Below, in pieces: positions 689-63,527 of a stretch of 64,000 nt of DNA. Source of the DNA: Eledone cirrhosa (taxonomy: Eukaryota); NCBI GenBank assembly GCA_964016885.1, contig OZ024743.1:124992001-125056000 (forward strand), given 5' to 3'. The stretch's first letter is position 1, and every line of letters begins with the position of its first letter. Under the pieces are notes generated by a model. That model saw nothing but the letters and a program-made list of their open reading frames with translations, was not told where the DNA came from and searched no databases. The translations under genes and the position numbers were made by a program.

Positions 689-746
689 ATACTATGATCA
701 TTTCAATGACCGGGTTCCATATGAATCCGGTGATATCATCAGGTAT
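689..746 (-). ncRNA. Type I hammerhead ribozyme in a PLE-like 3' end
   Basis: Minus strand reads AUAC-CUGAUGA-[UAUCACCGGAUUCAUAUGGAACCCGGUCAUU]-GAAA-U-GAUC-A-UA-GUAU. Stem I is AUAC:GUAU, the core is intact, stem III is palindromic, and the cleavage triplet is AUA. A ...PDGLK* PLE-like ORF end lies upstream (~870-930) and (TA)n lies downstream. Confidence 0.8.
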
Positions 747-1440
747 TCGAAATACAATAAATGAATGTAATAGGTAAAATCCATGGGGCTGAAAATCAAA
801 GACAGGAGGACGACCGACCATCTAGCACCTTCCACTTTAGCCGGTCGCCCTCAAGTGTTGGCTATTTGGTCTACTTGAGGCCATCTGGTGTGTGTGTGTG
901 GGGGGGGGGGGGGTAAAGCTTTTAGTGTGCTACTACCCTCCCTGGTCAAATAGAAAGGAGGGGGAAGATAAGTCAGCGTTAATATCATGCTACACGAAAA
1001 AGGACAGAAAGAAGGGGGAAGAAAAGGAAGAAGAAGAAAAGGCAGCGTTAGTGTCGAGCTACAAGAAGAAAGACAGAAAGAAAGAGGAAGAGAAGTCCGT
1101 ACTAATGTCAAGCTAGTCAGGCCAGGAGTGGCGCGAAAAAATGTTATTCTAAAGGACCCGTATCTTAACAGAGGTATATATTATAACAGAGGTAAATATA
1201 GTGGGGGTCTGCATGTTATAATGTGTGAGCAGAAGATTGAAACGTTAAATTTTGTTTAGATCTATAGGGTGAAGTTACAAAAATTCAATATTTAATATTA
1301 ACATTATAAAATTAAAGAAATTAGAAAATTGAAAATTAAACAGTTTAAAATTTTTAAGGTTTTAGTTACGAGGTTTAAGTAAAGAAAGTCTTTTATGAAG
1401 AAACTTTTATGAAGAAACTTAAATATATATATATATATAT

Positions 1441-1785
1441 ATATTAAGACAGGGGGGAAGAAAAAATGGCTTCACTTGTGCTTTCAATAAATTTATTTTC
1501 TTCACAAAATCCCAAAAGAATTTTTTTTCCGGATTAGAAAAAAAATTTTTTTTTTTTTTTTTTTTTTCTTAAAAAAAATTATTTTATAAATTAAGTTAAT
1601 TTATAAAATAATTTTTTTTAAGAAAAAAAAAAAAAAAAAAAAAAAAATTTTTTCTAATCCGGAAAAAAAATTCTTTTGGGATTTTGTGAAGAAAATAAAT
1701 TTGTTGAAAGCACAAGTGAAGCCATTTTTTCTTCCCCCCTGTCTTAATATACCTAACTGTACCAAGGATTACACACATTTTCCAA
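1441..1785 (+). repeat. ~310-bp near-perfect palindrome (fold-back) plus 35-bp unpaired tail, flanked by (TA)n
   Basis: 1441-1594 is the reverse complement of 1596-1750, centred on G1595, with one substitution and one homopolymer-length difference. Tail 1751-1785 runs into (TA)n. Confidence 0.9.
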
Positions 1786-1883
1786 TATATATATATATAT
1801 ACACACACACATATATATATGTGTGTTATGTTATTACGCTTGTATGTATGTATGTATGTATGTATGTATGTATGTATGTATGT

Positions 1884-2084
1884 CTGGAGATCTCTCTGCA
1901 CTTGTCATCACATGGTACAATGGGCCCAGCACTATGTGTCAATAATTGTCACAGGTGTAGTGTTTGTACCAGAGTTTTCAAGTCGCTGCCTGGACTAAAA
2001 AGTCACATTCAGCGCATCGGTAGGTGTTCCCCTACATGGATATAAAGTAGTGGCCGTACTCGAAAACGAGTTGGCAGCCACCAT
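1884..2084 (+). mobile_element. 3' end of an RTE-type (non-autonomous) element with a C2H2 remnant and (TATG)n tail
   Basis: Nearly identical to 57835-58040. Encodes CSVCTRVFKSLPGLKSHI and ends ggccgtactcgaaaacgagttggcagccacc(atgt)n. Confidence 0.7.
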
Positions 2085-2415
2085 GTATGTATGTATGTAT
2101 GTATGTATGTATGTATGTATGTATGTATGTATGTATGTGTGTATGTATGTATTGGCAGTAAATTGGTAGAGACGCTAGAATGCCTAGCGGTATGCGTTTC
2201 GGCTCCCTTGTCTTTGAGTTCAAATCCAACTCATGTCAACTTTGCATTTTATCCCTTCGGGGACGATGAATGCCATCTGATTTTTTTCTTTTTCTTTCTG
2301 CTTTTCTTTCCAGTTACTCTGAATCACCCCTCTCTCTCTCTCTCTCTCTCTATAAATACGTAGATACATGCACACACACACACATATATATATATGTGTG
2401 TGTGTGTGTGTGTGT

Positions 2416-59853: not shown

Positions 59854-60987
59854 GTAAGTGGAATGTTTTCTCGTATTTATTTAATAGTTAAATGTACTCA
59901 CTTTTATGGGAGGAACTTCCTTTGCAAACCCATCTTTTCCTCTCGACCTGGGCCATATTAACCAATAACCGGGCCCCTAGACTTTCATGTTTTTCAGTCC
60001 CCTCTTACACTAAAATGTTTCATCCCACAACATCAAAACAAATTGACGAGCTCTTAGTTTCTATCTATGGGGCTCCTAGGCTTCAGTTTTGTCAGCCTAA
60101 CCAGCCTTATGAATAATATGGCCCTTCTCCCGATAAAAATATCATAGAATAATATGTAATAAGATAATTATATTCAAAATATAAATATATTCACGACTGA
60201 GGTACAGTTTAGGCTGACCATTTCAAGTCTCTTTCGTTACACTTTGATTATAAATTAAAAAAATAAAATGTTACGTTGGAAGTTCCCACTGTGATTTAAA
60301 ATCCTCATAAAACAACACGTTCTCAATTAAGCAGTGACTGACGTTTCTCCACTTGACTTGAGGTGGTAGTGCAGTGCTTTTCTCATATGTTACTCAATGG
60401 ATCGATCGAGTTATATATCTCTGTTTGAACTTCATTTAAGATTAGTAAGACGACTGGTATTATACAAGCCAGTGTAAGCAGTAACAGTTTAACTTCACTG
60501 TTAATGCATGTAAAAACATCACGATATTGATATATAATAAGTTAATCCATTGCAGATACATAATATAATTTACAGGTTTGCAACGCACACCTTTTGATTT
60601 TTGTTGTTACAGATTACACTCACATATGGCCCCTCTAAGACTGTATCGCATAAGCGGCTTTTTGTATGTTTTAAAAATAAGGGTTCCAATTTTTTAAGGT
60701 CACCATTTCCCGGTGATTGAAGGCAGGATTTGCCGGAACAGATATTACGCGCCCTAATAATTCCGCCACTAGATGAGAATATATTTATCGAAGCCAAAAT
60801 GATGCAAGATAAAGTAGACGTCAGTAGGATTTGGACTCGGAGCATAGTATAACGGAATAGATTCTGCAAGATATTTAATCTGTCGCTCTAATAACTCTTC
60901 CAATTCACTGTCTTTAGGACACACCGAGCCTTCTTTCAATTTCAAAAGAACCAAACATTTATCTATAAAAGAAACCATTGCCTAAAG

Positions 60988-61055
60988 CAGGGTTTCCCAA
61001 ACCTTTTCAAACGCGGAACCCTTGGGTTCCGTGGAACCCAATTTGGGAACCATTG
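60988..61055. mobile_element. 68-bp hAT (Charlie-like) micro-MITE
   Basis: TIRs cagggtttcccaaa / tttgggaaccattg. Near-identical 8-bp TSD gcctaaag / gcttaaag. Confidence 0.7.
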
Positions 61056-61557
61056 GCTTAAAGAAAAACACGTGAGCGCGCACATACACACACACACGTA
61101 CATACATACATACATACACACATACATATACGTGTGTGTGTGTGTGTGTGTGTGTGTGTATGTGTGTGTGTGTGTGTGTGTGTGTGTGTGTGTGTGTGTC
61201 TGTGTGTGTGTCTGTGTGTGTGTCTGTCTGTGTCTGTCTATATAGATAACAAAGAGGGTGTGGTAAGATACCAGAGGGACCATAAGGCACCAGTGTACTC
61301 AATACTCGGAGTAGTAGAGTGGGTAATATGAAATGATTCAGGACCCCGACGGCTGAACTCCGGCCGTTTCGACAGCTAGATCCGAACTTAACCACCAGAA
61401 ACGGCCGGGGCTCAGCCGTCGGGGTCCCGAATAATTTTATATATATATATAGTAATAATGATAAATATGAAGACTAAAATACAAAGAGGGCTCGATAAGG
61501 ATAAATATATATCAAATATACTAGAACCCTAAAGCAAATATTTATTAACTTTAATCT

Positions 61558-61780
61558 GAGAGATGTCAACATGAATGGATATGTTATTTTTATCTAAAGA
61601 CATTTTTTCCAATTCCATCCCGCCCGTCCCCTCAATCTATCTTATTTCTCATTCTTTCTTCTGATGAAGGACTAGCGTCCGAAAAGTTAAGACCATCTTC
61701 CTGCGTATATCAAGCGTTAACCTAATATATCCCTTCCATATACTGTACCGATTGTGTTGTTATTTCTGTTTACCTTTTAC
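61558..61780 (+). mobile_element. Neptune-type solo 3' end with hammerhead (61657-61692), ending in (CA)n
   Basis: UCUU-CUGAUGA-AGGAC-UAGC-GUCC-GAAAAGUU-AAGA. Reverse complement of the 2416 and 28959 copies. Confidence 0.85.
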
Positions 61781-62568
61781 ACACACACACACACACACAC
61801 ACACACACACACACACACACACACACACACACACACACACACACACACACACACACACACACACACACACACACACACGTACATTTGTAAGAGTTCCACT
61901 CTCATCCACTCTCTGATGAGAAATCTATTCCTAGCTGGGGAGGTGGGGCAGGTCAAAGAATTTGATGGTTGCTACCTACTCTATGATATTCCTTGCATCC
62001 AAAGCTTTCCCTATATTTCGAAGAAAGGGAGAGAAAGGGAGGGAGGGAGATGGGAGGTAATGGAGAGGAGAGAGAGATTGCTATACTTAAGTTACCCTGT
62101 AAATGACCGTATCGTATTAATACTCTTCAGTGTGCCCTGCGATATCCATTTTCATTCATAAATCTAGATTAAGATTATTCCGGTAGATCAGAGGTCAGAG
62201 GTCAGGACAGCGATCAGTCTAGAAAGTTTATTTATGAGCTTAAAGTTCTAATTTTGACTTACGCCTAGAGTGTAATAGCGAAACAAACTGAACTTCATAA
62301 AATAGTAGTAACATCAGTAACATATTGGAAATATATCAAAAGCTAGACTATATTTTATCTACTGAGTTCGTGAACAATGAATTATCTCCTCTTTCAATTT
62401 TTACTGTCCACCCTTCAAAAATATTATATAGTAACCATTATAGTGACAGCAATTTCGACAATATTCTTTAAATGACTTTTCCTTATAGTTATACCATTGC
62501 GAGTTTCTTTTCTTTTCTGTTTAATCTGTGCTTTCTAATTTTTTCACGGTATATATATATATATATAT

Positions 62569-63527
62569 ATACATTATGAAGAGAGAAGAAACATTTAGAT
62601 ATAATTAGTAATAAAATGTATCATACCTAAACTGTTCCTAAATTCCTCGACTACGTAGTTTCGTGGCATAAACAAAAACAATATATCAAAGATATAGAGT
62701 CCTTGCGAGGTCTGCCGACTTATCAAGAGGATACCTCATTTTACTAGTCTCAAGAACGCGTCTACACGACGTGAGAAAGAATCCCAAAAGGCGGAGGGGG
62801 AGATAGTCACGCGATATAACGGTCGAGAAACAGAGCTAAGCCTCTTATAACCACGAAGAAAATACCACGGAGGCGGAGGGGGTATTCATATCGAGGCCGC
62901 AGAAGAGGTAGTGAAGAAGGCGAGAAGTATGAGTAATGGAAGCTTTCCAGTTGTCCCCACACTTCAAAGATTGCTCGACCAGAGGGAGTTATTAATATAT
63001 TTAGAAACACACAGATACATGCGGATACACACATATATACATGAATGCATCCGCACCCAACTGTGAGTTAAGGGTGCCAACTTCACCGATGTTGCTCAAT
63101 GAATGACTGGGACAGACCGCGTGACTATCTCCCCCTCCGCCTTTTGGGATTCTTTCTCACGTCGTGTAGACGCGTTCTTGAGACTAGTAAAATGAGGTAT
63201 CCTCTTGATAAGTCGGCAGACCTCGCAAGGACTCTATATCTTTGATATATTGTTTTTGTTTATGCCACGAAACTACGTAGTCGAGGAATTTAGGAACAGT
63301 TTAGGTATGATACATTTTATTACTAATTATATCTAAATGTTTCTTCTCTCTTCATAATGTATTTTTAACTCTGATACTGGTTCAGTCTAGTTCAAACTGA
63401 ATTGGTCTGTCCCAGTCATTCATTGAGCAACATCGGTGAAGTTGGCACCCTTAACTCACAGTTGGGTGCGGATGCATTCATGTATATATGTGTGTATCCG
63501 CATGTATCTGTGTGTTTCTAAATATAT
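62569..63527. mobile_element. ORF-less hammerhead-bearing element with nested double inversion, in (TA)n
   Basis: 62569-62813 is the reverse complement of 63118-63362 (245 bp), and 62995-63118 is the reverse complement of 63404-63527 (124 bp). Confidence 0.85.
63200..63287 (+). ncRNA. Type I hammerhead ribozyme, U3-A8 core variant with branched stem II (identical minus-strand copy at 62644-62731)
   Basis: UCCUC-UUGAUAA-GUcGGCA...UGCCAC-GAAA-CUACGUAG-UC-GAGGA. Stem I has 5 bp, stem III is the palindrome ACUACGUAGU, and the triplet is GUC. Confidence 0.8.

What the first reader, a model, noticed from the sequence alone, without database searches (positions are those of the whole stretch)
689..63287. 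Hammerhead menagerie: about a dozen motifs from ~8 families in 64 kb, all tied to microsatellite-embedded PLE-type ends
Seen: HHR cores at 689-746(-), 2503-2538(-), 25843-25868, 26164-26206, 26883-26919, 28794-28884(-), 29047-29082(-), 32478-32510, 32816-32873, 38440-38475, 48707-48748, 61657-61692, 62644-62731(-) and 63200-63287. Each lies roughly 50-250 nt upstream of an end that runs into (TA)n or (CA)n. Three are directly downstream of GIY-YIG remnants. Established: PLE pLTRs carry minimal type I HHRs, and some PLE clades prefer microsatellite targets. Inference: this genome hosts a very large and diverse ribozyme population, with many copies in introns of host genes.
Basis: partly seen in the sequence, partly recalled or inferred. 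Interest (0 to 1): 0.72.

Follow-up and report, generated by a model that had tools for sequence, protein, structure and literature searches.

The report
Genome saturated with retrotransposon hammerhead ribozymes
The self-cutting-RNA (hammerhead) motifs in this window are real leftover ends of Penelope-like jumping genes, a known pairing, but this probably octopus genome carries an estimated 300,000 of them in dozens of families, including one very abundant family with a normally fixed catalytic letter changed; cutting is untested.

Summary
All 14 motifs are there, in 8 repeat families, each about 55-240 nt upstream of a (TA)n/(CA)n tract. Six are intact for their family, four have a short stem I, four carry core or stem III lesions. 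They are minimal type I hammerheads of Penelope-like element (PLE) ends, described in 2014. F2, F5 and F7 belong to Neptune-type PLEs, F6 to a Hydra-type PLE, and F8 is a 591-bp non-coding retrozyme-like repeat. The window is average for its genome: 790 kb of evenly spaced samples gave 106 hits against 9.5 in shuffles, extrapolating to about 340,000 (211,000-488,000), more than any per-genome count I found in print. Rfam finds none. Family F5 has a fixed U3-A8 plus A13C core in 10,966 exact copies and in both ends of a full-length element; F6 has a fixed core insertion. Five motifs lie in introns of a cyclophilin gene. Copies span the cut site and do not begin at it, so their templates were uncut or re-ligated. 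Activity is untested. Earlier notes of this scan already reported the scale, the A13C family and F8 elsewhere in this genome.

The parts
689..746 (-). F1 hammerhead, C3-G8 core, long stem II, palindromic stem III, AUA site; intact; no own ORF found
2503..2538 (-). F2 minimal hammerhead (Neptune-type PLE end); stem I shortened to 2 bp
24477..24560 (+). GIY-YIG endonuclease remnant about 1.3 kb upstream of the F3 motif
   Evidence: tblastn
25843..25868 (+). F3 minimal hammerhead, decayed (U16.1 and stem I 3' strand lost to a C run)
   Evidence: against L119
26164..26206 (+). F4 hammerhead, core intact, stem I truncated at the 5' junction; no own ORF found
26661..27040 (.). F5 back-to-back pair of PLE 3' ends between two (TA)n tracts; long end on the minus arm, short end on the plus arm (41-nt tail)
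26883..26919 (+). F5 hammerhead-like motif, U3-A8 core with GCAA (A13C); family type
28794..28884 (-). F6 hammerhead with one extra core nucleotide (CUGAAAGA), 5-bp stem I, long stem II; Hydra-type PLE end; family type
29047..29082 (-). F2 minimal hammerhead, G16.2A lesion, 590 nt downstream of its GIY-YIG remnant
29669..30198 (-). GIY-YIG endonuclease remnant of the F2 Neptune-type PLE
32478..32510 (+). F5 motif of a second subfamily (U3-A8, A13C), stem I 2 bp
32816..32873 (+). F4 hammerhead, intact, 11-nt duplication in loop III; with an inverted half copy just upstream
37481..37699 (+). Host cyclophilin B/C-like gene, coding exon (start approximate)
38440..38475 (+). F2-related minimal hammerhead, U16.1C lesion; sense strand of a cyclophilin intron
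48100..48299 (+). GIY-YIG endonuclease remnant of the F7 Neptune-type PLE
48707..48748 (+). F7 hammerhead, U3-A8 core, U10.1-U11.1, weak 2-bp stem I; sense strand of a cyclophilin intron
57304..57391 (+). Host cyclophilin exon (borders approximate)
59669..59853 (+). Host cyclophilin exon; the last exon lies 225 bases beyond the window end (L077)
61657..61692 (+). F2 minimal hammerhead, C15.2A lesion; sense strand of the last cyclophilin intron
62570..63527 (.). F8 insertion: two inverted partial units of a 591-bp non-coding tandem repeat between (TA)n tracts
62644..62731 (-). F8 hammerhead, U3-A8, 5-bp stem I, long stem II, 10-nt palindromic stem III, GUC site; intact
63200..63287 (+). F8 hammerhead, intact; sense strand of the last cyclophilin intron
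40948..41137 (.). F9 (unlisted): inverted pair of 3' half-hammerheads of a Hydra-type PLE end
50105..50245 (+). F9 half-hammerhead
55888..56081 (.). F9 inverted pair of half-hammerheads
61237..61426 (.). F9 diverged subfamily, inverted pair of half-hammerheads

Best explanation
The motifs are minimal type I hammerheads carried in the terminal repeats of many Penelope-like element families and of a retrozyme-like repeat, and they were likely scattered as passive cargo because reverse transcription starts in a (TA)n target just downstream of them. Shown: each motif lies a family-specific distance upstream of an end fused to (TA)n; the same motif sits in both terminal repeats of full-length Neptune-type and Hydra-type elements; insertions are often back-to-back pairs with two fixed, unequal ends. 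Inferred from PLE biochemistry: the element's GIY-YIG/RT protein nicks both strands of a TA tract and copies the RNA from two start sites 17-240 nt past the ribozyme; most copies stop early, so one event leaves one or two short ribozyme-bearing ends. Inferred: in the source elements the hammerheads cut slowly, as dimers through the palindromic stem III, to process tandem or circular transcripts; most solitary genomic copies would be silent. The F5 family (A13C) is more likely weakened than a new catalytic design.
For: Both terminal repeats of full-length elements: F5 in L078 (9737- and 4932-) around RT and GIY-YIG ORFs with the Neptune-type C-x4-C-xx-C linker; F9 around a 786-aa ORF with RWR, SDKT and CxCx5C motifs in L336, F6 around a similar ORF in L338/L339 (Hydra criteria from PMC8557442 section 11). 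F2: PLE ORF upstream in 14 of 17 copies, most of them loci picked through the endonuclease. Features the descriptor did not ask for: perfectly palindromic stem III in 20 of 35 recurring families against 12 of 141 shuffled hits; 68 of 85 upstream of a tract against 22%; 15 divergent against 3 convergent same-family pairs, unequal ends in 12 of 14 measurable pairs; F5 ends 41 nt apart. Compensatory stem changes across the U3-A8 lineage, read by eye. Uncut template: F8 5' junctions at the cut site 5, at a control position 17 nt downstream 12; 0 of 30 F5 copies anchored downstream begin at the cut site, 7 begin 35-50 nt upstream of the core. PMC11167929 (passages): two RT start sites, ribozyme mutants do not block insertion in vitro.
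Against: No cleavage or expression data. C11.1, part of the published consensus, is present in only 13 of 35 families (U11.1 in 16). No own ORF for F1 and F4, so their mobiliser is assumed. For F5, the motif outside the loop shows no shared variant other than position 13 against 32 of 194 flank columns, and stem I pair 3 changed C-G to U-A on both sides, which fits continued selection rather than decay; most of those copies were picked by their core, so the test is biased. The genome-wide number rests on 79 samples and a home-made score.
Confidence: 0.85

Rival explanations
1. The motifs are an active, genome-wide layer of host RNA processing: sense-strand intronic copies cut pre-mRNAs, alone or as trans dimers between copies of one family.
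For: Four sense-strand motifs in introns of one gene, one of them intact (63205+); thousands of identical copies per family could supply dimer partners; some families have stable stem III hairpins.
Against: Three of the four sense intronic copies here are damaged or weak; metazoan minimal hammerheads did not cut as monomers and only weakly as dimers (PMC4209133); strands are balanced genome-wide (e.g. 5504/5462), though strand relative to host genes was not tested.
Confidence: 0.1
2. F5's U3-A8 plus C13 core is a working natural variant, kept by selection, in which C13 is tolerated or suits the U3-A8 pair or the element's protein.
For: C13 in 10,966 against 153 other copies and in every subfamily medoid of two or more copies; rest of the motif unchanged while flanks diverged; compensatory stem I change against the A13 relative L204.
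Against: A13 is part of the strict core consensus and most core changes cut activity drastically (PMC3088659); stem I is only three A-U pairs; the predicted fold does not form the hammerhead; PLE insertion did not need cleavage in vitro.
Confidence: 0.35
3. The motifs are chance matches in AT-rich, repeat-rich DNA.
For: About 9% of descriptor hits are expected by chance (9.5 of 106); Rfam finds none at its thresholds.
Against: Canonical cores 85 against 0.5 in shuffles; fixed position in families, palindromes and covariation.
Confidence: 0.01

Closest known systems
Minimal type I hammerheads (min-HHR) of metazoan PLE terminal repeats (Cervera and de la Pena 2014, PMC4209133; parts 1-2 of 4 and supplement passages read)
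   Same: Type I order, short or palindromic stem III, short stem I, extra base after A9, U3-A8 covariant, many divergent families per genome, mostly solitary or in opposite-strand pairs
   Different: Scale: about 3e5 here against about 2,000 (Schistosoma), 4,000 (coelacanth), 9,000 (Xenopus); U11.1 more common than C11.1; fixed A13C and core-insertion families not seen in the parts read; no octopus entry in the searchable supplement
Neptune and Hydra clades of EN+ PLEs (Craig et al. 2021, PMC8557442; passages, section 11, supplement rows)
   Same: RT plus C-terminal GIY-YIG, clade motifs, canonical hammerheads, (TA)n insertion, inverted 5'-truncated partner and one-sided tail
   Different: Tail offsets up to about 165 nt in some families against 30-40 bp described; clade assigned by motifs only, no tree built
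Metazoan non-LTR retrozymes (PMC7229834 passages; bioRxiv 10.64898/2026.07.22.740005 part 1 and passages)
   Same: F8 and the 310-bp arrays: non-coding tandem units, one type I hammerhead per unit
   Different: F8 unit is 591 bp (150-450 bp typical), has a U3-A8 core and PLE-like inverted, TA-fused ends; circular RNA untested. Largest count in print that I found is 120,000 in axolotl
Natural hammerhead core variants (Perreault et al. 2011, PMC3088659; section 8 and passages)
   Same: U3-A8, insertion after A6 (low activity) and U10.1-U11.1 are described
   Different: A13C is not among the variants in the text read; its figure and supplement were not seen

Membership tests
PLE minimal type I hammerhead | CUGANGA or UUGANAA, stem II, GAAA, NUH, stem I in type I order | tested here: met
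   Family types of F1, F2, F3, F4, F7, F8, F9; individual copies often damaged
PLE minimal type I hammerhead | Strict core in F5 (A13) and F6 (seven-base box) | tested here: not met
   F5 has C13; F6 has one extra base. Both descend from hammerhead-bearing PLE ends, so they are variants or decayed forms
PLE minimal type I hammerhead | Palindromic stem III/loop 3 | tested here: met
   20 of 35 families perfect, 30 of 35 at least 75%; shuffled hits 12 and 37 of 141
PLE minimal type I hammerhead | Conserved G10.1-C11.1 pair | tested here: not met
   C11.1 in 13 of 35 families, U in 16
PLE minimal type I hammerhead | Located in the terminal repeats of RT/GIY-YIG elements | tested here: met
   F2, F5, F6, F7, F9; likely F3; not found for F1, F4, F8
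PLE minimal type I hammerhead | Self-cleavage, as dimer | not testable with these tools
   No assay; no RNA run listed
Neptune-type PLE (F2, F5, F7) | C-x(2-5)-C-xx-C linker before a C-terminal GIY-YIG with CCHH | tested here: met
   Read in ORFs of L064, L075, L343; Neptune versus Nematis not resolved, no tree
Hydra-type PLE (F6, F9) | RWK-like motif, DKT, CxCx5C linker, (TA)n insertion | tested here: met
   RWR, SDKT, CNCPDRSIC or CNCRAGTQC in L336, L338
Non-LTR retrozyme (F8) | Non-coding tandem unit with one type I hammerhead | tested here: met
   591-bp period, up to 5 units, longest stop-free stretch 86 aa, 0 of 20 with a PLE ORF upstream
Non-LTR retrozyme (F8) | Expressed as circular RNA | not testable with these tools
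   No RNA data
Rfam hammerhead families | Gathering score | tested here: not met
   0 matches in the window and in 150 kb of the motif-richest samples

The most novel reading that the evidence does not exclude
This genome holds the largest and most varied hammerhead population reported for one organism (about one motif per 10 kb), invisible to Rfam, and a young, very successful PLE family in it runs on a working U3-A8/C13 core not described before, so that sister families with intact, altered and promoter-split ribozymes form a natural experiment on what PLE hammerheads are for.
Probability: 0.25. Interest if true: 0.7.

Novelty: new variant of a known kind. Interest (0 to 1): 0.45.

Why it matters
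The role of hammerheads in Penelope-like elements is an open question (PMC8557442, PMC11167929). This genome offers side-by-side families that spread to thousands of copies with a canonical core, an A13C core, a core insertion, or mostly only half the ribozyme, so the question can be tested by comparison. The number itself, about 100 motifs per Mb and missed by Rfam, means many host introns carry one; whether any cut host RNA is testable. The class and mechanism are known, so this extends rather than overturns.

Tried and rejected
Rfam at E-value up to 5: the 150 rows shown were almost all microsatellite-driven microRNA matches, 82 rows unseen; repeated at gathering score, 0 matches. The repeat finder was swamped by a TA-rich array. 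DNA search of the genome with F8 returned nothing because common words are skipped; patterns were used instead. First descriptor was too strict on bulged stem II. A pooled test of 5' ends across families was unusable: cross-family and low-complexity hits dominated. Other core variants in the 790-kb sample (A3-U8, G3-C8, A6, A9, other box-2 changes) showed no clear excess over shuffles. Sequencing runs: no RNA holder listed. Laying two contig runs on F5: organism B keeps C13, but at trace depth and near identity, so not used as cross-species evidence. Lunse et al. 2017, Nelson and Uhlenbeck 2008 and Arkhipova et al. 2017 were not held. PMC11014351, PMC6155905, PMC9901934, PMC2837043 passages gave no A13C data.
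Full report
Setting. The window is G000:C4:124,992,001-125,056,000 of a 3.0-Gb assembly, rich in microsatellites. The best named relatives of one of its PLE reverse transcriptases are molluscan, the most similar from Octopus species (67% and 57% over part of the query), so an octopod host is likely; that is inference.

Observation. All 14 motifs are present. 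My type I descriptor (box 1, stem II by folding, box 2, stem III, UH, stem I) gave 8 hits scoring 10 or more against 1.05 in 40 shuffles. Nine listed sites passed; the other five align in register with family copies. Six of 14 are intact for their family, four have a short stem I, four have a core or stem III lesion. All 14 lie about 55-240 nt upstream of a TA or CA tract (23% expected within 260 nt), and three GIY-YIG remnants lie upstream of 25843+, 29078- and 48714+.

Genome scale. I took 79 evenly spaced 10-kb stretches (one of 80 requests did not exist). They hold 106 hits against 9.5 in shuffles; canonical C3-G8/GAAA cores alone 85 against 0.5, U3-A8/GAAA 14 against 5. The smaller contigs were represented by 19 samples from 14 contigs. 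Decayed copies and permuted forms are not counted; about a tenth of hits are chance. The window's 8 hits match the mean of 8.6 per 64 kb. The sample falls into 44 clusters, 22 of them seen at two or more loci. Exact patterns, with reversed-pattern controls at 0: F5 10,966, F8 5,970 (46), F6 461 (47), F7 1,100 (49), F9 3' half 51,673 (78). Rfam finds nothing at gathering score. In print I found about 2,000-9,000 minimal hammerheads per genome (PMC4209133), over 6,000 in 16 families in a coral and 120,000 retrozyme copies in axolotl (PMC7229834), and 235 Rfam hits in giant squid (PMC6962438). Searches for hammerhead plus octopus, cephalopod plus ribozyme plus Penelope, and hammerhead plus A13C gave no census for an octopus and no A13C; a recent Octopus repeat annotation does not mention ribozymes (PMC13282606 passages). 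Lunse et al. 2017, which from memory reports about 150,000 PLE-linked variants across species, was not held and may include octopus sequences.

What carries them. F5 sits in both terminal repeats of a 4.8-kb element with RT and GIY-YIG (L078). F2 and F7 follow similar Neptune-type ORFs. F8 is a 591-bp non-coding tandem unit, like a retrozyme. F1 and F4 showed only other families' ORFs nearby.

How they spread. In the sample 68 of 85 motifs lie within 260 nt upstream of a tract, 67 of them TA (22% expected; upstream side 33 of 85, partly from inverted partners). Same-family pairs are back-to-back 15 times and convergent 3 times, with unequal family-specific ends in 12 of 14. This matches the inverted partner and one-sided tail of PLEs (PMC8557442) and the two RT start sites and both-strand extension shown in vitro (PMC11167929). 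The ribozyme lies just upstream of those starts, so even short copies keep it: this explains the number without any host function. Copies run through the cut site. For F8, 5' junctions at the cut site number 5 against 12 at a control position; for F5, 0 of 30 begin there and 7 begin 35-50 nt upstream of the core. Templates were therefore uncut or re-ligated; DNA cannot tell which.

Are they hammerheads? Unrequested features say yes: palindromic stem III in 20 of 35 recurring families against 12 of 141 shuffled hits, and compensatory changes in stems I and II across the U3-A8 lineage. Against the published consensus, C11.1 is present in only 13 of 35. Cleavage is untested, and published metazoan examples cut weakly and only as dimers.

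Variants. U3-A8, an insertion after A6 and U10.1-U11.1 are in print. F5 adds A13C: 10,966 copies against 153 with another base, and 24 of 25 covering copies picked without regard to the core. Its relatives keep A13 and a stronger stem I. For decay: A13 is strict consensus, stem I is three A-U pairs, and insertion does not need cleavage in vitro. For function: the rest of the motif is unchanged across subfamilies while 32 of 194 flank columns vary (Fisher p 0.08 as run, and biased by how copies were picked), and one stem I pair changed on both sides. I put a working variant at about one in three.

Host gene. A cyclophilin B/C-like gene on the plus strand has exons near 37,481-37,699, 57,304-57,391, 59,669-59,853 and just beyond the window. 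Five of the 14 motifs lie in its introns, four on the sense strand, one of those intact (63205+).

Verdict. Observation confirmed; interpretation supported with the limits above. A known class at an unusual scale, with untested variants. The scan noted the same scale, the A13C family and F8 before in this genome; those notes are not independent support. Supplement file 1 of PMC4209133 and the supplements of PMC3088659 and the bioRxiv preprint were not seen and may bear on the A13C claim.

Noticed in passing
window 40948-41137, 50105-50245, 55888-56081, 61237-61426; L245-L304; L336: Ninth family (F9, Hydra-type PLE) present as half-hammerheads. The whole form has U3-A8, a 55-nt stem II and GUC. 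Only 9 of 34 unselected copies are whole; the rest start inside loop II near an initiator-like TTAGTC, some with an extra G, as if the promoter splits the ribozyme. Ends lie 17 and about 100 nt past the cut site. A 786-aa open ORF lies in L336.
   Followed up: partly
L126:281-3381 (11 units), L088:8460-9764: 310-bp tandem arrays with one canonical hammerhead per unit, a second retrozyme-like family, not in the window.
   Followed up: no
   Followed up: partly
window 37481-64000 and L077:225: Cyclophilin B/C-like host gene with a 19.6-kb and a 4.4-kb intron full of repeats.
   Followed up: partly
window 13334-15957 (+), 50689-53399 (-), 41786-44070 (-), 23499-24202 (-): Broken non-LTR retrotransposon (LINE-type) reverse transcriptase frames, unrelated to the PLE ends.
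   Followed up: no
window 56156-56926 (-): Mariner-type transposase remnant (HTH domains).
   Followed up: no
window 30506-30719, 34923-35113, 36574-37003, 46332-46532, 47564-47889, 58539-58737 and others: An abundant family of about 200 bp, about a dozen copies, probably a tRNA-derived SINE.
   Followed up: no
window 54144-55890: 1.7-kb degenerate TA/CA array, apparently an expanded target tract between two PLE-type ends.
   Followed up: no
L152:3597-8672: Four descriptor hits at about 1.7-kb spacing in a larger tandem repeat, not near microsatellites; probably chance.
   Followed up: no
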